A stretch of 64,000 nucleotides of DNA, taken from NCBI RefSeq assembly GCF_013299175.1, contig NZ_JAAFKF010000002.1, positions 5,248 to 69,247 of the forward strand. The letters are read 5' to 3'. Below the pieces are notes generated by a model. The model was given only the letters and a program-made list of their open reading frames with translations. It was not told the origin of the DNA and did no database searches. This stretch comes from Sphaerotilus sp. (lineage in GTDB: Bacteria > Pseudomonadota > Gammaproteobacteria > Burkholderiales > Burkholderiaceae_C). Positions 12,838 to 20,982 of the stretch are shown here, in pieces (within the stretch, counting starts at the first letter, position 1; each line of letters opens with the position of its first letter). The translations under genes were made by a program, and so were the position numbers.

Positions 12838-13271
12838 GGTGTAGATCCAGCGGCCGAAAGGGACGCGATCTTACCGGCTGGACCTGGGGTCGCCTGGGTC
12901 CGCGTGGTACTGCCACAAGTACCGATTCGTTCCGTGAAGGGGTCTTGATGGTACCAATTCGTGTCAAGGCGTAGCAAAAGTGTCGATCAGGCTCAATATG
13001 TGAGCCAGTCAGCGGTAGATTCGCAGTCTGTGCATGTTCAAATCGGGTCTGCATGTGGGATTTGATGCATATTTGAAAAAATCGACCAAGCTGGTCCGAC
13101 AAAGCCCGCAACAGCCTGTGGTATGGGACGGTCGCGTTTTTCGTGCTGCGGTTTCCCTGGTTCATGGGGCACGGCAGCGTGATTGGGCGACGGACAGGCT
13201 GGTCGTCGCTACCATCGGTTACAGGCAGCGGCATCTGCATTCCGCCTGTTCCCGTGCGGTGATCCACCCTC

Positions 13272-13298
13272 TGCAGTCTTGGATGAAGTTGCCGATAT
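13272..13298 (+). promoter_or_regulatory. Putative sigma28 (FliA)-type promoter
   Basis: TGCAGTCT-N11-GCCGATAT versus consensus TAAAGTTT-N11-GCCGATAA (5/8 and 7/8, exact spacing). Confidence 0.5.
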
Positions 13299-13347
13299 GA
13301 ACTGGTCACACAACGCTCAGCAGCAGCCACGATGGGGACACAGCACC

Positions 13348-13737
13348 ATGCGATTCGGCCGTACAAAACAGCGCGGCGACCCCGTGCAGGAACACATCGA
13401 CTGTCTGGTGGGCTGCGGCACGACCGTGACGGGCGATCTGACGTTCGCGGGGGGCTTGCGCATTGATGGCCATGTCGAGGGTGACGTGATCGTCTCGCCG
13501 GCCATTCCGGGGACGCTGGTGATCGGCGACCAGGGCAGTGTGGCCGGGGACGTGCGGGTGTCGCACCTGATCGTGTTCGGCCGGGTGCTGGGCACGGTCT
13601 ACGCCAGCGGACTGGTGGATCTGCGCATCAGCGCCCAGGTGGCGGGTGATGTGCATTACGGTGCAATCGAGATCGAGAAGGGCGCGGTGGTCGAAGGCCA
13701 TCTCGTCAAACACAAGACGGCGGGTACGGTGCAATGA
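13348..13737 (+). CDS. Bactofilin (polymer-forming cytoskeletal protein)
   Basis: IDCLVGxGTTVTGDLTFAGGLRIDGHVEG...LVIGxxGSVxGDV...GRVxG...VxGDVHYGAIEIEKGAVVEG; alternative start 13297. Confidence 0.92.
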   Translation: MRFGRTKQRGDPVQEHIDCLVGCGTTVTGDLTFAGGLRIDGHVEGDVIVSPAIPGTLVIGDQGSVAGDVRVSHLIVFGRVLGTVYASGLVDLRISAQVAGDVHYGAIEIEKGAVVEGHLVKHKTAGTVQ

Positions 13738-14396
13738 GCGGTGTTCAGTCGGTGATCGGGGCGTCGGACCCCATGTTCGTGTTCGCCCGAGCCGGGCGGC
13801 TGGACTGTCCGTCGAGCACGGATGTGCAGGACGCCTGGCGCCATTTTTCCATCCAGGTCGCCCGCGATCCGCTCGACATCGAGGCCCACACGCGCCGCGT
13901 GCTGCTGGCCAGTCGGCCGCCGCTGACCGACCGGGCCTTCGGGGCGCTGGTGGATCTGTTCCTGGCGCTCGGCGACCACGGTCGGGGTCTGCGCCGGCAG
14001 TTGCTGGAGCAGGCGATGCCCTGGCTCGATCCCGACGACGCCCATTTCCTGCGCACGCACCTGGATACACGCCTGTCCCGCGGCGCGCAGTTGCCGACCC
14101 AGCGCTGGTCGGTGCTGGACACGGCCGTCCTGGGTTCGCTGGACATGGTGGGGCTGCAGCGCCGCCAGGTCGCCCAGGAAACACCGTTCCAGCAGGCCAT
14201 GTCGTTACTTGAATATGGCGATCTGGCAGGCGCGCGTGGCATGCTGGAGGTCGCGCTGCTGGAAGAGCCTGACAATGAGGAAGTCAACCGCGAACTGCTG
14301 GCCATCTACCAGCACAGCCGGGACGACGCAGGCAAGGCCGACATGGCCGACAAGCTTGTCGCACGCCACGGCGCGCTGCCTTCGGGTTGGGCTTGA
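13734..14396 (+). CDS. Hypothetical protein with C-terminal TPR-like helices
   Basis: ATGA overlap with bactofilin stop; C-terminal AMSLLEYGDLAGARGMLEVALLEEPDNEEVNRELLAIY is TPR-like. Confidence 0.7.
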   Translation: MSGVQSVIGASDPMFVFARAGRLDCPSSTDVQDAWRHFSIQVARDPLDIEAHTRRVLLASRPPLTDRAFGALVDLFLALGDHGRGLRRQLLEQAMPWLDPDDAHFLRTHLDTRLSRGAQLPTQRWSVLDTAVLGSLDMVGLQRRQVAQETPFQQAMSLLEYGDLAGARGMLEVALLEEPDNEEVNRELLAIYQHSRDDAGKADMADKLVARHGALPSGWA

Positions 14397-14461
14397 GACG
14401 CTGTCCAGCGTTCCGAGCAGACATCCCAGCCGATCGATCTATGACTTTGAGCCTGTAGTCA

Positions 14462-16199
14462 GTGGAAGCCACCAAGCTGCAAACCCGATTGAAGGTCGTC
14501 CTTCTGTCACTGCCCCCACGCACCCAGGCGGTGCTGGATTTCTTCTTTTCGAGCACAGGACGCAGCAGTTTTGCGCCGTCGAGCGAAGAGGCTGCCGACG
14601 TGGCCATCTTCGACTTCGATACGCTGGAGTCGCGCCAGCACTGGGAACGCTGGCATGGACGGCGCGGCGGCCCTGGCATCGCCCTGTCCACCCAGTCCCA
14701 GGACGTGGACTCGGCGATCTGGGTGCAAAAGCCGGTGACGCCGGCGGCCTTGCTCGCGGCGGCCGCGGAGCTGCGCACGCGGCGCTGGAGCGGCGGTGTT
14801 GCGGTGTCTGCACCGGCGGCTCCTGCGGTGGTGCCGGCCCCGGCGCCGGTGCCTGCGCTCCCGCCAATCGCTGAACTGTCGACATGGACGGAGAGTCCTG
14901 CTCCTGCAACTGCGCCCGCTGCCGTGGTGCGGCCGGTCGCGCCACGGCCGGTGGTGGCCTCGCCTGCGCCTGCACCAAGTGGCGGATTGGGGGGGCTGTT
15001 TCGCCGGATCTTCAACAAGTCCGCACCCGTTGCGGCGCCCGTTGCCGCACCTGCTCCGACGCTGGCTCCGGCGCCTGTGCCGCCCCCATTGCCGGTTACT
15101 GCGCCGGTTACTGCGCCGGTTACTGCGCCGGTTACTGCGCCACAAGTCCGCACCCGTTGCGGCGCCCGTTGCCGCACCTGCTCCGACGCTGGCTCCGGCG
15201 CCTGTGCCGCCCCCATTGCCGGTTACTGCGCCGGTTACTGCGCCGGTTACTGCGCCGGTTACTGCGCCGGTTACTGCGCCTGCGCCTGCGCGCACACCGA
15301 TCCCCGTGCCCCCGGCGGTCCCCGCAGCACCAGTGGTCAAGCCTGCGCCCATACCGCCCCCGCCTCCGCCGAAACCTGCACCGCTGCCAGCCCCCACGCC
15401 AGCACCTGCTCCGGTGCTGGCCCCGCCGGCCCCTGTGCCTGCACCCGCCGCCGTGGCCGCACCCGTCCACGATGCCCATGGCCACCGCCGCCCGCGCCCC
15501 GAGGAACTGGTCGAGGAATCCCGCTACTGCGGCCAGCGTGCCGATGTGGCCGATGCCGCCCAACTGGCCGATGGCAGCCTGCGCTACGACCCGGCCCAGC
15601 ACCTCGTGGGCGTGCTCAAGGATGCTTACCTGGTCAGTTGCAAGTGGCAAGTGCCGACCCACCTCGACAGCACCGCCGGCCGCATCACCGTCGATGGCAC
15701 CACCAACCTCATCTACTGCGAGTTCAACGCCGAGCAGCTCGCTGCGCTGGTGGGCAAACCCCTCGACAAGCGGCCCAAGACGCGCGCATTCAGCCGCCAG
15801 GAGTTCGCCGATCTGCAGGGCACGCTGGAGAAGAAAGCCTTGGTGCAGCGGCTCGACCATGTGCTGTGGCAGACCGCGCTGGAGACCTCGGCAGGCCGGC
15901 TGCCGGTTGGCGTGGACCCGGTCGCTCCGGTCTACCTCAAGCACTGGCCCAATCTGACCCGTCTGCACCGCACGCCGCACGCTTTGCGCATTGCGGCCTT
16001 GTGGACCACCAGGGGCGCAGGGTTGCTGGAGACGGCCCTGACGCTCAAGATCGCCCAGCGCCACGTGTTCGCGTTCTACAACGCGGCACTGGCCCTGGAT
16101 CTGATCACTGAAGACGGCGCGCAGGTCCGCAGGGCACAGCGCAAGACCAAGAACAACCGCGGTCTGCTGACCCGCTTGTTCGGCTGGCTGAACAAATAA
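14462..16199 (+). pseudogene. Atypical receiver domain - Pro/Ala linker - conserved C-terminal domain protein, frameshifted by a 127-bp duplication (possibly artefact)
   Basis: N-part in frame of 14462 (LKVVLLS, ADVAIFDFD, GIALS, VQKP); C-part in frame ending at 16199. Removing 15015-15141 leaves 1611 nt = one intact 536-aa ORF. Confidence 0.75.
15015..15280 (+). repeat. 127-bp direct tandem duplication containing 12-bp VNTR GCCGGTTACTGC (4 copies, then 5 copies)
   Basis: ACAAGTCCGCACCCGTTGCGG... starts at 15015 and again at 15142; 12-mer arrays at 15091-15138 and 15218-15277 encode PVTA repeats. Confidence 0.95.
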
Positions 16200-16204
16200 G
16201 CAAC

Positions 16205-16741
16205 ATGGCCCAAACCGATCACAAAATCATCTTCACCGGCCCTGTCGGTGCAGGCAAGACCACGGCCATCGCCTCGATCAGCGACATCGAGCCGATCCGC
16301 ACCGACGAACATGCGTCGGACATGACCCAGAAGCGCAAGTCCGCCACCACCGTGGCCATGGACTACGGAATGATCCGTCTGGGCCCGAAGGAGAAGGTCC
16401 ACCTGTACGGCACGCCCGGCCAGGAACGCTTCGACTTCATGTGGGACATCCTGACCAAGGGCGGGATCGGACTGGTGCTGTTGCTCGACAACACGCGCCC
16501 GACGCCGTTCGAGGACATGCGCTTCTACATCAAGGCGTTCAAGGAGTTCATCGATGGCACCCGGCTCGTGATCGGCGTGACGCAGATGGACGCCCGTCCG
16601 ACGCCCACCATCGACGAGTACGTGCGCCAGCTGGCCGAGCTGGACGTGTCCGCGCCCGTCTTCGAGGTGGACGCCCGCCAGCGCACCGATGTCTCGACGC
16701 TGATCGAGGCCCTGCTGCTCCAGATCGACCCGACCCTCTGA
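16205..16741 (+). CDS. MglA/CvnD-like small GTPase
   Basis: G1 GPVGAGKTT, G2 TTVAMDYG, G3 LYGTPGQERF, G4 VTQMD, G5 DAR. Confidence 0.92.
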   Translation: MAQTDHKIIFTGPVGAGKTTAIASISDIEPIRTDEHASDMTQKRKSATTVAMDYGMIRLGPKEKVHLYGTPGQERFDFMWDILTKGGIGLVLLLDNTRPTPFEDMRFYIKAFKEFIDGTRLVIGVTQMDARPTPTIDEYVRQLAELDVSAPVFEVDARQRTDVSTLIEALLLQIDPTL

Positions 16742-16763
16742 CCCGGTAACTTCCGCGCCACCC

Positions 16764-17405
16764 ATGGACCATTACACCCTCACTGGCGAGTTCTACCTCC
16801 ACCCGACGCCGGCGGGTGCCTACTACGCCGCCAGCCGGCCCACCCGTGATCCAGCACGGCTGTTCCTGCAGCGGCTGCTGCGCGAATCCGAGACGCCACG
16901 CCTGACCGCCGACCTGGTGCAGGACTGGATGTCGATGGGGCAGCAGGACGCGCTGGAGTTCATCTACCGCCTGCAGTCCTCGGGCTTCGTGCAAGGGCTG
17001 CCGATGCACGTCGAGGTGCCGCCCGACTCGATCGAGGCGATGCTGCCGCCGTTGCTGGCGCAGTTGTCCGACGAGGGCAAGGCGATCCTGGCCGACAAGC
17101 GCGGTCTGTACCTGGGCACCGCCGGCTTTGCGCATGAGACGGCCGAAGAACTCGCCGCACTCGGCGGTGACCTGGCCAGCGTCCACGAGCGCCACGCGCG
17201 GCTGCTGCACGGCAACATGCGCCTGCGCAGCGACGGCTGGGGCATGGTGAACGCCGCGGGCTACTGCGAAGTCGGTTTCTGGCCGCTGTACTTCGGCGAC
17301 GACTACTTCATCCTGATCGTCAATGGCATGCCACGGTTCAACCAGGAAGCCTTCACCACGCTGGTGTGGACCCTGGGTGTGCGCTACGGCAACACGGCCT
17401 TCTGA
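16764..17405 (+). CDS. Hypothetical protein; probable N-terminal helical/wHTH region plus roadblock/longin-like C-terminal domain
   Basis: C-half (AILADKRGLYLGTAGF...EELAALGGDL...VGFWPLYFGDDYFILIV) follows the roadblock strand/helix pattern; sits between the GTPase and MglB. Confidence 0.6.
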   Translation: MDHYTLTGEFYLHPTPAGAYYAASRPTRDPARLFLQRLLRESETPRLTADLVQDWMSMGQQDALEFIYRLQSSGFVQGLPMHVEVPPDSIEAMLPPLLAQLSDEGKAILADKRGLYLGTAGFAHETAEELAALGGDLASVHERHARLLHGNMRLRSDGWGMVNAAGYCEVGFWPLYFGDDYFILIVNGMPRFNQEAFTTLVWTLGVRYGNTAF

Positions 17406-17456
17406 TGTCCATTTCCCTCCCCCGATCTCCCTTTTTTCTCTCGAAGGAACTGCCCC

Positions 17457-17819
17457 ATGCGTGAAGACCTGCTGAACTCGATCCTGAGCGAACTCAACGG
17501 ATCCACCGCCGACATCGAAGCCTCGGCCGTGTTGTCCACCGACGGCCTGATGATGGCCTCGATGCTGCCGGCCGGCATGGACGAGGACCGCGTGGGTGCC
17601 ATGAGCGCCGCCATGCTGTCGCTGGGCGACCGCACTTCGCGCGAACTCGCCCGCGGCGAGCTGGAGCAGGTGCTGGTCAAGGGCGCCAAGGGTTATGTGC
17701 TGATGACGTACGCGGGCAAGGACTCGGTGCTGACGGCGCTGTGCAAACCGAATTCGCGTCTGGGCCTGATCTTCCTCGACGTGAAGCGCGCCGCCGACGC
17801 CATCAGCAAGGTCATCTGA
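17457..17819 (+). CDS. Roadblock/LC7 (MglB-like) protein
   Basis: ASAVLSTDGLMMAS, DRVGAMSAAMLSLG, LEQVLVKGAKGYVLM, LGLIFLDVKRAA. Confidence 0.93.
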   Translation: MREDLLNSILSELNGSTADIEASAVLSTDGLMMASMLPAGMDEDRVGAMSAAMLSLGDRTSRELARGELEQVLVKGAKGYVLMTYAGKDSVLTALCKPNSRLGLIFLDVKRAADAISKVI

Positions 17820-17846
17820 TCGGTCGGTCGAGATCGAGGGAAATCG

Positions 17847-18344
17847 ATGATGACCGATATGAGTGAGGCGGATCTGGTCCCCGCAGCGCCGCACCGTGCG
17901 CTGACGTTGAGCTACCACGATGGGCGTACCCGTCGTGTGCTGGTCAACGACCAGGAGGTGCCGTACCCGGATGGCATGCTGATCGTCTCGCGCACCGACT
18001 CGGCGGGCATCATCACGCACGCCAACCAGGCGTTCGTGGACATGTCGGGCTATGCACGCGACGAGCTGATCGGCGAGAGCCACTGCATCCTGCGCCACCC
18101 GGACATGCCGACGGCCGCGTTCCATGACCTGTGGGACACGGTCAAGCGTGGTGCCAAGTGGCAGGGCTACGTGAAGAATCTGCGCAAGGATGGCGCGCAT
18201 TACTGGGTCTTCGCCACCGCGATCCCCAATGTGCGCGAGGGCCGCGTCGTGGGCTACACGTCGGTGCGCCGCAAGCCTTCGCGCGCCAAGGTCAACGACT
18301 GCATCGCGCACTATGCGCGGCTGCGCAGCGAGGAGCTGAAGTGA
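17847..18344 (+). CDS. Stand-alone Aer-type PAS domain protein
   Basis: IVSRTD...ITHANQAFVDMSGY...ELIG..HCILRHPDMPxAAFxDLW...WxGYVKNLRKDGxHYWV, close to the FAD-binding PAS of E. coli Aer; no transmembrane or MCP domain. Confidence 0.9.
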   Translation: MMTDMSEADLVPAAPHRALTLSYHDGRTRRVLVNDQEVPYPDGMLIVSRTDSAGIITHANQAFVDMSGYARDELIGESHCILRHPDMPTAAFHDLWDTVKRGAKWQGYVKNLRKDGAHYWVFATAIPNVREGRVVGYTSVRRKPSRAKVNDCIAHYARLRSEELK

Positions 18345-19090
18345 CCCTGGAACTGACCGTCAGCCCGGACTTCTCGCCCGAGCACATCGCCGGCTGGTAC
18401 GTGTTCAACACCTGGCTGCAGCGCAAGCTTGGCGTGCGGATCCACCTGGAGCTGTACGAGGATTTTTCTACCCAGCGCCAGGCGATCGCGGCAGATCGGG
18501 TAGACCTGATCTACGCCAATCCCTACGACGCGGCCGTGCTGGTGCGCGAGAAAGGGTTCGTGGCCATCGCCGCGCCGCAGGGCAAGGCCGACGAGGTGGT
18601 GATCGCCGTGCCGGCCAGCTCGCCTGCGCAGACCGTGGAAGACCTGCAGCCGGGGTTGCGCCTGGCCATGACCCACGACCCGGATGTGAACCTGATCGGC
18701 ATGATCCTGCTGGAATCGGCCGACCTGACCCGCGACAACACGCAGGCACAGCAGGTTTCGACCTACGTCGTGCTCGCCCGCGCCCTGCTGCAAGGCAAGG
18801 CGGACTGTGGTTTCTTCCTTCAGGAAGCGTTCGATGACCTGAGCGCCCCGATCCGCCGCCAGTTGCGCCCGCTGATGACCAGCCAGATCAGTCTGGTTCA
18901 CCATGTGCTGCTGGTCGGGCCGCGGTGCGCAGCGCTGCGCGAGCCGCTGCAGGCGCTCTTGCTGGGCATGTCGGCGCCGGGCTCGGATGGCCGCGCCACG
19001 CTGCAAGCCCTTGGCCTGCGTGGCTGGGACAAGCAGGATCAGGAAGACACCGAATTCATGATCGACCTGATGGACACCTTGATGGTGTGA
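18341..19090 (+). CDS. PhnD/SsuA-like (PBP type 2) solute-binding protein lacking a signal peptide
   Basis: GTG overlaps PAS stop; DLIYANPYDA, SSPAQTVEDL, LLQGKADCG motifs; N-terminus not hydrophobic. Confidence 0.8.
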   Translation: MTLELTVSPDFSPEHIAGWYVFNTWLQRKLGVRIHLELYEDFSTQRQAIAADRVDLIYANPYDAAVLVREKGFVAIAAPQGKADEVVIAVPASSPAQTVEDLQPGLRLAMTHDPDVNLIGMILLESADLTRDNTQAQQVSTYVVLARALLQGKADCGFFLQEAFDDLSAPIRRQLRPLMTSQISLVHHVLLVGPRCAALREPLQALLLGMSAPGSDGRATLQALGLRGWDKQDQEDTEFMIDLMDTLMV

Positions 19091-19098
19091 AAACGGAC

Positions 19099-20163
19099 AT
19101 GTTGCGACCCCCCCTGAAGCGTCACCTCCTCCCCCTTGCGCTGGCCCTGTCGGCCGGACCTGTTCTGGCCCAGACTTCGTCGGCCGGCGCACCCGCGCCG
19201 ACGCAGCGCACGACGGTGGAGCAGGACAACCTCTGGGACATCGCCGGCCAGCTTGCCCCGGCCATGGGTGCCACGCGCCAGCAGGTCATGGTGGCGGTGC
19301 TGCGCCGCAACCCGGACGCCTTCGTCAAGGGCAACATCCACCGCCTGCGCCGCGGCGTGCCGCTGGTGCTGCCTGGGCAGAGCGAGGTGCTGGCCGAGGA
19401 CCGTGCGGGTTCGGTGGCGCTGGTTGCCGACCACTTGAAGGCGCTGCGGGGCGGGGCTGTGCTGACGCCGCTGGTTCCGCGTGCAGCGACCGAAACGCCC
19501 GCGCCACCGGTTGCTCCGTCGCCACCCCCCCCGCCTCCCGCACCGGTGGCGCCACCGCCCGCACCGGCTTCTGTCCCCACTCCGGTCGAGAAACCCGCGT
19601 CGGCGGTGGAGCCTGCGGCACCGGTCGCATCGGCTGCACCACCCATCCCGGCCGAGCCGGTCGCCTCCGCGCCCGTGGCGGTGGCGGCTGCATCCGAGGT
19701 GGCCAGTGCCGCGGTCGGTGGCGGTTCGGCGTCGCGGGTGTTGCCGTGGTTGCTGGGGCTGGGCGCGTTGACTGGTGGCGTGATCCTGTGGCGCCGTCGG
19801 CGGGCCGGATTCCAGCCGGATGGGCCGGCACCGGACTTCACGAACACGCTGAGTGCCACGCGCACTGGCGGCCCGCGGGTGTTCGACATCTCGAATGCGG
19901 CCGCCGAGATGGCCCGCTCGGTGGAAACCTCGCAAGCCGCGACCCAACTGGTGCGCAGCAACGCCAGCGCCGGTGCCGACGTTGGGGATGAGGTGGATGT
20001 GTCCCGCTTGGCGGAGCAAGCCGCCATCAAGCTCGACATCGCCCGCGCCAGCCTGGAGCTTGGCCGCACGGACAGTGCGCGGGCGCTGCTGCTGGCGGTG
20101 GTGCGCGAAGGCTCCGGGCGCCATGCGGCGGAGGCCGCCGAGATTCTCGCGCGCATGGGCTGA
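19099..20163 (+). CDS. Compact FimV/HubP-like polar landmark protein
   Basis: Signal peptide; FimV N-domain NLWDIA...QQVMVAVLRRNPDAFVKGNIHRLRRG; Pro/Ala linker; TM LPWLLGLGALTGGVILWRRRR; FimV C-domain KLDIARASLELG...ARALL..VVREG. Confidence 0.82.
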   Translation: MLRPPLKRHLLPLALALSAGPVLAQTSSAGAPAPTQRTTVEQDNLWDIAGQLAPAMGATRQQVMVAVLRRNPDAFVKGNIHRLRRGVPLVLPGQSEVLAEDRAGSVALVADHLKALRGGAVLTPLVPRAATETPAPPVAPSPPPPPPAPVAPPPAPASVPTPVEKPASAVEPAAPVASAAPPIPAEPVASAPVAVAAASEVASAAVGGGSASRVLPWLLGLGALTGGVILWRRRRAGFQPDGPAPDFTNTLSATRTGGPRVFDISNAAAEMARSVETSQAATQLVRSNASAGADVGDEVDVSRLAEQAAIKLDIARASLELGRTDSARALLLAVVREGSGRHAAEAAEILARMG

Positions 20164-20167
20164 GGGC

Positions 20168-20188
20168 GAGAGACCGGCCCGGTCTCTC
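20168..20188. terminator. Hairpin between convergent operons
   Basis: GAGAGACCGG / CCGGTCTCTC inverted repeat just after the FimV-like stop; no clear U-tract. Confidence 0.45.
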
Positions 20189-20211
20189 GGGCCGTTTCAG
20201 CCCAGCTCAGC

Positions 20212-20982
20212 TCAGATCAGTTTACGTGGCGAGAACTGGCGGGCCGCCGGGATCTGCTCCGCTGACCGCACCGCGCGGGTCAGCACCTGGTCCGCATCGA
20301 TCGGGCCCAGTGCCTCGCACAGCGCCACATAGAACTGGTGGACAAGCTGCGAGAGTTCGGCCGGCGTGCCGTCGATCACCCAGGACACCTGCATCGGCTG
20401 TGCCCAGGCATCGCGCACCTGCTTGCGCACGGGCTGCGAAAGGCGGCCCTGGTCGAGCTGCTCCAGCGCGCTGCTGCGCAAGTCGGTCAGCGAACCCGCG
20501 TGAAAGCGTTGCACCTCGGTGAGCGCATTGCGCAGCAGTTCGGCGCAGACCACCCGGTCCGGTGATGCGGGTGGTGCGGCCGGGGCGGGGGGCAGGGCTG
20601 TCACCATCGGCTGCGAGGTGCCCGCTGCCGATGCCGCTGGATCGAAGGGTGTGGCTGCGGCACTGGCCGGCATGGGCGCTGGAGCGGGGGTGGGTGCAGC
20701 GGGGGTGCCGATCTGCATCAGCGGCCAGGGGTCCATCGGCAGCTCGCTTTCAGGCTGCTTCAGGGCCTTGAAGTACGCCTCGTAGAGCTTCTTGCGGCTG
20801 GCGGCGTCGATGTGGTTGCGCGCGGCCACCTGGTCGATGTAGCCGATGATGTCGGACACCGAATCGCCACGCATCGACTGGTGCTGCATCCGCAGCGCAT
20901 CGAGCAGGGCGTCCTCCTCCAGCAGCGGCGACAGCACGGCGTAGGCGGCGCGGCGCCGCTGGGACAGGGCTTGGGTGGCCAT
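20212..20982 (-). CDS. Hypothetical cytoplasmic helical protein, two domains joined by a Pro/Ala linker
   Basis: 256-aa ORF, AAGGA RBS inside the amt 3' end, ATG 4 nt after amt stop. Confidence 0.75.
   Translation of the reverse strand: MATQALSQRRRAAYAVLSPLLEEDALLDALRMQHQSMRGDSVSDIIGYIDQVAARNHIDAASRKKLYEAYFKALKQPESELPMDPWPLMQIGTPAAPTPAPAPMPASAAATPFDPAASAAGTSQPMVTALPPAPAAPPASPDRVVCAELLRNALTEVQRFHAGSLTDLRSSALEQLDQGRLSQPVRKQVRDAWAQPMQVSWVIDGTPAELSQLVHQFYVALCEALGPIDADQVLTRAVRSAEQIPAARQFSPRKLI

What the first reader, a model, noticed from the sequence alone, without database searches (positions are those of the whole stretch)
17847..18344. Free-standing Aer-type PAS domain with no receptor body
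Seen: near-complete Aer PAS motifs (HAN..F..SGY, RHPDMP, W.G.VKN.RK.G.HYWV), ending right after the PAS with no TM, HAMP or MCP domain. Established: Aer PAS binds FAD and senses redox/energy state for aerotaxis. Inference: a soluble redox sensor signalling to the GTPase module instead of CheA.
Basis: partly seen in the sequence, partly recalled or inferred. Interest (0 to 1): 0.6.

Follow-up and report, generated by a model that had tools for sequence, protein, structure and literature searches.

The report
Stand-alone Aer-type PAS sensor protein
This is a real 165-residue protein that is essentially the flavin-binding oxygen/energy sensor domain of the Aer chemoreceptor; it always comes with a cytoplasmic binding-protein partner and nearly always beside a Ras-like GTPase/Roadblock switch, so it probably feeds redox state into that switch, not into chemotaxis.

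Summary
ORF 17847-18344 (+) encodes a 165-aa protein. Its core matches the E. coli Aer PAS domain (PDB 8DIK, E 6e-36; model rmsd 1.0 Å). The Aer flavin contacts H53, R57, W70, N85 and R115 are kept and invariant in the family. It has no membrane segment, HAMP or chemoreceptor (MCP) domain.

It is not a gene fragment. It belongs to a tightly conserved family (58-90% identity) of 150-167-aa proteins with a family-specific N-terminal beta-hairpin.

- **Partner:** its stop overlaps the start of a signal-less PhnD/PtxB-fold protein (PBP, a periplasmic-binding-protein fold). That gene follows in 75 of 76 loci and in 14 of 14 sampled genomes.
- **Module:** a Roadblock gene sits directly upstream in 59 of 75 loci. 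The small GTPase lies within 9 kb in 45 of 54. This is the "Group 3 MglA system" of Wuichet & Søgaard-Andersen 2014, whose neighbourhood entries for it list neither the PAS nor the PBP.
- **Not CetB-like:** no locus has an adjacent chemoreceptor gene, whereas 7 of 10 other stand-alone Aer-like PAS genes do.

Best reading: a flavin PAS plus PBP sensor pair acting on the MglB/MglA switch. The scan noted the same module earlier on other DNA.

The parts
17847..18344 (+). Stand-alone Aer-type (FAD-type) PAS protein, 165 aa. It has an N-terminal beta-hairpin (residues 17-33), a PAS core (46-142) and a C-terminal helix (146-164).
   Evidence: The equivalents of the Aer FAD contacts are H79, R83, L95, W96, N111 and R141. 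All but L95 are invariant in 44 orthologs, and L95 is invariant in the 14-sequence alignment.
18341..19090 (+). Cytoplasmic PhnD/PtxB-fold protein (PBP), 249 aa, with no signal peptide. Its GTG start overlaps the PAS stop (GTGA). It is the obligate partner gene.
   Evidence: Pfam PF12974 at 1.1e-42. The model has pLDDT 95.2 with beta-strand 1 starting at residue 3. Foldseek gives PtxB 5o2j at TM 0.83, then PhnD, ArrX, AioX and XAC2383. It is adjacent to the PAS gene in 75/76 loci and 14/14 sampled genomes.
17457..17819 (+). Roadblock/LC7 (MglB-type) protein, 120 aa, ending 27 nt before the PAS start.
   Evidence: Pfam PF03259 at 1.4e-16. It lies directly upstream of the PAS gene in 59/75 loci. 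An ortholog is present in 14/14 PAS-positive genomes.
16764..17405 (+). 213-aa protein with no Pfam match. It is the first 'MglB' of the Group 3 layout DUF>MglA>MglB>MglB.
   Evidence: One search gives no family. The Leptothrix ortholog (212 aa) is listed as MglB in the entry for Lcho_0655 in the supplement of PMC4316618. It lies within 9 kb of the PAS gene in 44/54 loci.
16205..16741 (+). Small Ras-like GTPase, 178 aa, a Group 3 MglA.
   Evidence: Pfam ATP_bind_1 at 2.7e-13 and Ras at 2.3e-07. Orthologous to the Group 3 MglA of the Leptothrix locus entered as Lcho_0655 (178 aa). Within 9 kb in 45/54 loci. Found in 13/14 PAS-positive genomes.
14462..16199 (+). The Group 3 'DUF' protein: a receiver-like N-terminal part, a Pro/Ala repeat linker and a C-terminal domain. 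Its frame is broken in this assembly.
   Evidence: Two ORFs in different frames. The description of the family is in PMC4316618. RNA-library contigs from three studies skip 163 nt here, which would rejoin the two frames.
13734..14396 (+). 220-aa conserved upstream protein, weakly TPR/PilW-like.
   Evidence: One search gives a weak hit. tblastn finds relatives upstream in many loci.
19099..20163 (+). Short FimV/HubP-like protein. As a neighbour it is specific to this lineage (Sphaerotilus/Leptothrix group).
   Evidence: NCBIfam FimV_core at 3.9e-17 and FimV_Cterm at 2e-08. Present mainly in the close relatives.

Best explanation
The gene encodes a soluble flavoprotein sensor. An Aer-type PAS domain most likely holds FAD and changes conformation with the redox or energy state of the cell. 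It is made together with a cytoplasmic PhnD-fold protein, by translational coupling, and probably works as a two-protein sensor with it. This pair serves as an accessory input to a proteobacterial 'Group 3 MglA' small-GTPase system.

The likeliest route is binding to the MglB-type Roadblock protein or proteins, which would change how they control the nucleotide state of the GTPase. In this organism the output is probably cell polarity or motility, because a bactofilin gene and a FimV-like gene flank the cluster.

Shown here: the fold, the conserved flavin-contact residues, the free-standing form, the gene coupling, and the co-occurrence and synteny.

Inferred: FAD binding, the PAS-PBP contact, the contact with Roadblock, and the output.
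For: 1. **Aer-type PAS.** 8dik at E 5.6e-36. The model superposes at rmsd 1.0 Å. The published Aer FAD contacts H53, R57, W70, N85 and R115 map without gaps to H79, R83, W96, N111 and R141, all invariant in 44 orthologs. M69 maps to L95, invariant in the 14-sequence alignment. Aer S28, whose change to Gly stabilised the isolated domain, is Gly54 here.
2. **A distinct family.** In 299 evenly drawn genomes of the class, 14 have an ortholog (193-237 bits, 58-67% identity, open frames of 157-188 aa). All other hits score 144 bits or less, start at about residue 30 and mostly lie in 500-1200-aa proteins.
3. **PBP partner.** It is adjacent in 75/76 loci, mostly with a 4-nt overlap, and in 14/14 sampled genomes.
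4. **Module link.** Roadblock is directly upstream in 59/75 loci. The GTPase is within 9 kb in 45/54. Roadblock orthologs occur in 14/14 and the GTPase in 13/14 PAS-positive genomes, against 14 of the 285 genomes without the PAS for Roadblock. Where the pair stands alone (Leucothrix and one other genome), the GTPase, the gap where the 213-aa gene sits, and the Roadblock gene lie together elsewhere. Gene order is permuted in Vandammella and Bacteroidota, yet the set is kept.
5. **Identity of the module.** The Leptothrix ortholog, entered as Lcho_0655, is listed as Group 3 'DUF>MglA>MglB>MglB'.
6. **Precedent.** Stand-alone GAF and P450 accessory proteins act as sensory inputs of actinobacterial G-protein systems.
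7. **Other hints.** Rare natural fusions of receiver, PATAN and this PAS type exist. RNA-library contigs cover the gene and both of its junctions.
Against:
- About a fifth of the loci carry only the PAS-PBP pair.
- Two genomes with Roadblock-PAS-PBP show no MglA-type GTPase with either a protein query or a family query.
- Half of the genomes with the Roadblock ortholog lack PAS-PBP, so the pair is optional for the module.
- The isolated Aer PAS domain binds FAD weakly.
- This genome has no full-length Aer but does have a sensor-less TM-HAMP-MCP, so a chemotaxis role is not excluded.
- The output of Group 3 systems is unknown.
Confidence: 0.6

Rival explanations
1. CetB-like reading. The PAS protein is the detached sensor half of a bipartite energy-taxis receptor. 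It docks on a sensor-less TM-HAMP-MCP encoded elsewhere and signals through CheA.
For: - Free-standing Aer-like PAS proteins with this role are known, for example CetB/CetA and CetB2/CetA2.
- This genome has no full-length Aer.
- It has one 450-aa MCP with only a short N-terminus, a HAMP and a signalling domain, at L007:1548-2900.
Against: - None of 80 loci has an adjacent MCP gene, and only one has an MCP within 10 kb, in 1.2 Mb of flanks.
- Seven of 10 other stand-alone Aer-like PAS genes from the same class have an MCP gene within about 1 kb on the same strand.
- Those CetB-like proteins lack the N-terminal hairpin and form a separate branch (SH-aLRT 99, quick tree).
- The N-terminal half of the sensor-less MCP has no detectable relative in any PAS-positive genome.
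Confidence: 0.08
2. Autonomous pair. PAS and PBP form a self-contained redox/ligand sensor whose real target lies outside the GTPase module, such as an enzyme, a transporter or a transcription factor. The linkage to the module would then reflect shared regulation only.
For: - The pair stands alone in Leucothrix, Anaerolineales, Aquificaceae and others.
- It is kept where no MglA-type GTPase was found.
- PhnD-fold proteins serve as sensory partners of other signalling proteins; AioX, ArrX and XAC2383 are among the best structural matches.
Against: - All 14 PAS-positive genomes of the class sample carry the specific Roadblock ortholog.
- Roadblock is the immediate upstream gene in 59/75 loci.
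- The gene set survives permutation of gene order.
- No other conserved neighbour was seen.
Confidence: 0.2
3. Not a sensor. The flavin PAS acts as a small redox enzyme, or as an assembly factor for the PBP-like protein.
For: It has no output domain and is co-translated with a single partner.
Against: - Every close relative of known function (Aer, NifL, MmoS) is a redox sensor.
- The residues thought to carry the signal in Aer (H53, N85, R115) are invariant here.
Confidence: 0.05

Closest known systems
[quoted passage not shown]
   Same: About 55% identical over 111 residues with no gaps, by my count from the alignment. The fold is the same, including the C-terminal helix (rmsd 1.0 Å). All five polar or aromatic FAD contacts (H53, R57, W70, N85, R115) are kept.
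   Different: There is no F1 linker, membrane hairpin, HAMP or MCP signalling domain. There is an extra conserved N-terminal beta-hairpin. Gly occupies the Aer S28 position. The gene is coupled to a PBP gene, not fused to a transducer.
CetB of the bipartite CetA/CetB energy-taxis receptors (Campylobacter jejuni; CetB2/CetA2 of Magnetospirillum; PMC2628428, PMC12442639)
   Same: A free-standing Aer-like PAS protein of about 160 aa, with FAD shown for CetB2.
   Different: CetB genes sit next to their MCP partner. This family does so in none of 80 loci. CetB-like proteins from the same class branch apart and lack the hairpin. Campylobacter CetB itself was not in my tree.
Group 3 MglA systems (Wuichet & Søgaard-Andersen 2014, PMC4316618)
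   Same: The upstream genes are exactly this layout (DUF>MglA>MglB>MglB). The Leptothrix ortholog, entered as Lcho_0655, is listed there.
   Different: The text and neighbourhood entries I read in that paper list no PAS or PBP gene for these systems. The pair is an optional addition, found in about half of the genomes that carry the Roadblock ortholog.
CvnF (GAF) and CvnE (P450) accessory proteins of actinobacterial G-protein systems / conservons (PMC13343842)
   Same: Stand-alone sensor-type proteins encoded inside a small-GTPase/Roadblock operon and proposed as its sensory input.
   Different: Different folds and a different phylum. CvnF acts on the histidine kinase CvnA, and Group 3 systems have no kinase, so the receiving protein must differ.
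PhnD-fold sensor partners AioX, ArrX and XAC2383 (PDB 6eu7, 6x8w, 5ub3)
   Same: The downstream partner has this fold (TM 0.79-0.84). These proteins act as ligand sensors for signalling proteins, not for transporters (my knowledge, not checked here).
   Different: Those proteins are periplasmic. This one has no signal peptide. The PtxB phosphite-binding STS-H motif does not appear to be kept, although that part of the HMMER alignment is uncertain.

Membership tests
Aer-type aerotaxis receptor | N-terminal PAS domain with the FAD-contact residues H53, R57, W70, N85 and R115 | tested here: met
   An ungapped alignment to 8dik maps these to H79, R83, W96, N111 and R141. All are invariant in 44 orthologs.
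Aer-type aerotaxis receptor | The same polypeptide continues into a membrane hairpin, a HAMP domain and an MCP signalling domain | tested here: not met
   The stop is at 18342-18344. Only PAS families match. The next gene is in another frame and encodes a PBP.
Aer-type aerotaxis receptor | Binds FAD non-covalently | not testable with these tools
   Only residue conservation and the modelled fold are available.
CetB (bipartite CetA/CetB receptors) | Free-standing Aer-like PAS protein of about 160 aa | tested here: met
   165 aa here. The orthologs are 146-167 aa, apart from two mis-modelled ORFs.
CetB (bipartite CetA/CetB receptors) | A cognate TM-HAMP-MCP gene (CetA) next to it | tested here: not met
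   No MCP gene is adjacent in 80 loci, and one lies 7.3 kb away. Seven of 10 other stand-alone PAS genes have an adjacent MCP.
CetB (bipartite CetA/CetB receptors) | Groups with CetB-type PAS sequences | tested here: not met
   In the quick ML tree the MCP-adjacent stand-alone PAS proteins form their own branch (SH-aLRT 99), apart from the branch holding Aer-type PAS domains and this family. Campylobacter CetB itself was not included, and the careful tree search did not finish.
Group 3 MglA system (as an accessory component) | Encoded with DUF>MglA>MglB>MglB | tested here: met
   The window layout matches the Leptothrix locus entered as Lcho_0655.
Group 3 MglA system (as an accessory component) | Physical or functional interaction with MglA or MglB | not testable with these tools

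The most novel reading that the evidence does not exclude
A flavin PAS protein and a cytoplasmic binding-protein-fold partner form the dedicated redox/metabolite input of proteobacterial Group 3 MglA/MglB switches. This would be a widespread and so far undescribed route from cellular redox state to a Ras-like GTPase in bacteria. It would parallel, but be independent of, Aer-to-CheA signalling and the actinobacterial CvnF-to-CvnA input.
Probability: 0.45. Interest if true: 0.75.

Novelty: new variant of a known kind. Interest (0 to 1): 0.62.

Why it matters
Small Ras-like GTPases with Roadblock partners control polarity and motility in Myxococcus, and development in Streptomyces. The proteobacterial Group 3 systems, found in genera that include Neisseria, Xanthomonas and Stenotrophomonas, have no known input or output.

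A strongly conserved pair of sensor-type proteins attached to about half of the sampled systems gives a concrete, testable input: redox state through FAD, plus an unknown ligand. It also shows that the Aer sensor domain has been reused outside chemotaxis. In addition, the pair offers a naturally soluble Aer-type PAS domain, which could be easier to study than the unstable isolated Aer domain.

Tried and rejected
- **Apparent PAS-PBP fusions** in L086 and L087 were artefacts of my ORF tagging. Translation shows a different frame in L086 and an in-frame stop in L087. No fusion with the PBP was seen among the 'longer' hits either.
- **The exhaustive representative search** was swamped by multi-PAS proteins and added little beyond a few cluster representatives.
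- **A sensor-less MCP in this genome** was examined as a possible CetA. Its N-terminal half finds nothing in PAS-positive genomes. TM/HAMP regions diverge fast, so this is weak evidence.
- **The promoter and terminator scan** of 13000-20500 found nothing between the genes. This fits one operon but is uninformative.
- **RNA-library contigs** from four studies cover the PAS gene and bridge both junctions. Contigs cannot prove a single transcript, and DNA carry-over is possible.
- **Literature searches** for this PAS/PBP/Roadblock combination found no description. Only open-access text was searched.
- **Ligand of the PBP:** the HMMER alignment to PtxB puts TxDPD where the STS motif lies, Tyr where His155 lies, and Asp84 and Phe42 where two ligand tyrosines lie. 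The alignment confidence there is low and I could not read model coordinates, so I only say that a phosph(on)ate ligand is doubtful.

Full report
**Observation**

The ORF at 17847-18344 (+) is real and gives 165 aa. A GAGGG ribosome-binding site lies 6 nt before the ATG. Pfam finds only PAS families, with PAS_3 at 7.9e-16.

Against all solved structures the best match is the E. coli Aer PAS domain (8dik, E 5.6e-36), aligned without gaps over residues 36-146. The FAD-binding PAS domains of MmoS and NifL follow. An AlphaFold model built on 44 orthologs has pLDDT 94.7. It superposes on 8dik_A at TM 0.96 (normalised to the target) and rmsd 1.0 Å.

The published Aer structure names the FAD contacts H53, N85, R115, R57, W70 and M69. 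With the constant offset of 26 these are H79, N111, R141, R83, W96 and L95. All but L95 are invariant in 44 orthologs, and L95 is invariant in the 14-sequence alignment. Aer S28, whose change to Gly helped stabilise the isolated domain, is Gly54 here. The protein stops after one C-terminal helix. No membrane, HAMP or MCP part exists.

**Is it a fragment?**

No. A word-indexed search found more than 3,500 proteins of similar length. The top 120 are 137-174 aa long and 64-99% identical. They come from Sphaerotilus, Leptothrix, Rubrivivax, Thiothrix, Leucothrix and Competibacteraceae.

A scan of species-representative genomes found 591 stretches matching family-signature peptides. I examined the best 80. 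They include Burkholderiales, Rhodocyclaceae, Thiotrichales, Methylococcales, Xanthomonadales, Oceanospirillales, Anaerolineales, Bacteroidota and Aquificaceae.

In an even sample of 299 other genomes of the class the hits are bimodal:
- 14 genomes have an ortholog, at 193-237 bits and 58-67% identity, in open frames of 157-188 aa that cover the protein from near its start.
- Every other hit scores 144 bits or less, starts at about residue 30 and mostly lies in a 500-1200-aa protein.

The extra N-terminal 35 residues form a confident beta-hairpin. Aer-type MCPs and CetB-like proteins lack this hairpin.

**Surroundings**

The TGA stop overlaps the GTG start of a 249-aa Phosphonate-bd protein. 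That protein begins directly with beta-strand 1 and so has no signal peptide. Its model (pLDDT 95.2) matches ligand-bound PtxB, PhnD, ArrX, AioX and XAC2383 at TM about 0.8.

Upstream, on the same strand, lie these genes:
- a Roadblock/LC7 protein, ending 27 nt before the PAS start;
- a 213-aa protein with no family match;
- a 178-aa Ras-like GTPase;
- a Pro-rich protein;
- a 220-aa protein.

A short FimV-like gene follows the PBP gene.

**Conservation of the neighbourhood**

Across the 80 loci:

| Neighbour of the PAS gene | Loci with it / loci with room on the contig |
|---|---|
| PBP gene directly downstream, mostly with a 4-nt overlap | 75 / 76 |
| Roadblock gene directly upstream | 59 / 75 (5 more nearby) |
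| GTPase within 9 kb | 45 / 54 |
| 213-aa protein within 9 kb | 44 / 54 |

In the class sample the figures are as follows:
- All 14 PAS-positive genomes have the PBP ortholog on the same contig, next to the PAS gene in every case I checked.
- All 14 have the Roadblock ortholog.
- 13 of the 14 have the GTPase.
- The same Roadblock ortholog occurs in only 14 of the 285 genomes without the PAS.

Where the pair stands alone, as in Leucothrix pacifica and one other genome, the GTPase and Roadblock genes lie together elsewhere, separated by a gap of the size of the 213-aa gene.

Gene order is permuted in Vandammella (Roadblock-PAS-PBP-DUF-GTPase-213aa) and in a Bacteroidota MAG. The MAG has two PAS copies, a stand-alone CZB sensor domain and a canonical receiver. 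The gene set is kept in both.

Marinobacterium stanieri and one sampled genome keep 213aa-Roadblock-PAS-PBP, but no MglA-type GTPase was found with either a protein or a family query.

The order of attachment is therefore PAS-PBP (almost never apart), then Roadblock, then the 213-aa protein, then the GTPase.

**What the module is**

Wuichet & Søgaard-Andersen (2014) defined Group 3 MglA systems of beta- and gamma-proteobacteria. [quoted passage not shown] The unknown protein has a receiver-like N-terminus, a variable linker and a winged-helix-like C-terminus. Their supplement enters the Leptothrix cholodnii locus as Lcho_0655, 'DUF>MglA>MglB>MglB', with a 178-aa MglA. That locus is the ortholog of this cluster. 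The text and neighbourhood entries I read there list no PAS or PBP gene, and my literature searches found no description of them.

A close conceptual precedent appeared in 2026. Stand-alone GAF (CvnF) and P450 (CvnE) proteins are proposed as sensory inputs of actinobacterial G-protein systems.

**The CetB alternative**

Free-standing Aer-like PAS proteins are known as CetB, the partner of the MCP CetA. I tested this in four ways.
1. Only 1 of 80 loci has any MCP signalling domain within 10 kb, and none has one adjacent.
2. Of 10 other stand-alone Aer-like PAS ORFs from the same class sample, 7 have an MCP gene within about 1 kb on the same strand. None of the 10 has a PBP or Roadblock neighbour.
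3. In a quick ML tree those proteins form their own branch (SH-aLRT 99). This family clusters (SH-aLRT 87) next to the N-terminal PAS domains of true Aer-type MCPs. The careful search did not finish, and Campylobacter CetB was not included.
4. This genome has no full-length Aer and has one sensor-less TM-HAMP-MCP. The N-terminal half of that MCP has no relative in any PAS-positive genome.

The CetB reading is unlikely but not excluded.

**Other hints**
- Two metagenomic proteins fuse a receiver, a PATAN (PatA_N) domain and a PAS that nests inside this family. PATAN proteins have been linked to MglA/MglB neighbourhoods.
- Contigs from four freshwater metatranscriptome studies cover the PAS gene and bridge the Roadblock/PAS and PAS/PBP junctions. 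This fits expression as part of the operon but cannot prove it.
- No promoter- or terminator-like site lies between the genes.

**Mechanism proposed**

FAD in the PAS pocket reports redox or energy state, as in Aer, NifL and MmoS. The PAS protein and the co-translated PBP-fold protein form a cytoplasmic sensor pair. The pair acts on the MglB-type Roadblock proteins and thereby on the GTPase switch. The hairpin and the family-specific basic stretch after R141 are candidate docking elements; this is speculation.

The PBP may add a second, small-molecule input. Its ligand is probably not a phosph(on)ate, because the PtxB binding motif does not seem to be kept, but that part of the alignment is uncertain.

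Fold, residues, coupling and co-occurrence are shown here. Cofactor, contacts and output are inferred.

**Verdict**

It missed that the PBP is the constant partner and that Roadblock, not the GTPase, is the nearest module component.

This is a new variant of known kinds: a CetB-like free PAS, and a CvnF-like accessory sensor of a prokaryotic G-protein system. I found no description of the combination.

The same module was noted earlier by this scan on other genomes. One follow-up there reached the same Group 3 MglA assignment, which I had reached independently from the literature.

Noticed in passing
window 14462-16199 (repeat region about 15090-15254): The Group 3 'DUF' gene is split between two reading frames in this assembly. 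RNA-library contigs from three studies skip 163 nt inside the Pro/Ala repeat, and 163 mod 3 = 1, which would rejoin the frames. The break is therefore probably a repeat expansion or an assembly artefact rather than a dead gene.
   Followed up: partly
L042:7362-15457 (Bacteroidota MAG): A variant cluster reads: TPR protein, Roadblock, stand-alone CZB (chemoreceptor zinc-binding) domain, two tandem PAS paralogs, PBP, a 118-aa protein, a canonical receiver protein, Roadblock, a 278-aa protein, GTPase, HD protein. A second MCP-type sensor domain has been recruited as a free protein into the same kind of module.
   Followed up: partly
P0123, P0124 (metagenomic proteins, 490 and 505 aa): Natural fusions of Response_reg, PatA_N (PATAN, DUF4388) and a PAS that nests within this family in the quick tree. 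The next gene overlaps by 4 nt, and its product (at least 386 aa, cut by the contig end) could not be read because no DNA was served.
   Followed up: partly
L053 (Marinobacterium stanieri) and G175:C67: These clusters keep the 213-aa protein, Roadblock, PAS and PBP. No MglA-type GTPase was found anywhere in the genome with either the protein or the PF03029 family query.
   Followed up: partly
window 18341-19090: The PBP-fold partner seems to carry acidic or aromatic residues (D84, E85, T111-x-D-P-D, Y142) where PtxB has its phosphite-binding Tyr, STS and His residues. The pocket may therefore be acidic and not made for an oxyanion. The alignment is uncertain in that region.
   Followed up: partly
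whole genome G000: The stand-alone protein is the only Aer-type PAS in this 94.8%-complete genome. The genome has eight MCPs over the Pfam cut-off but no full-length Aer.
   Followed up: yes
G158:C485:1095-1808: One sampled genome has a PBP ortholog (45% identity) interrupted by two stop codons and no PAS ortholog. This looks like a decaying remnant of the pair.
   Followed up: no
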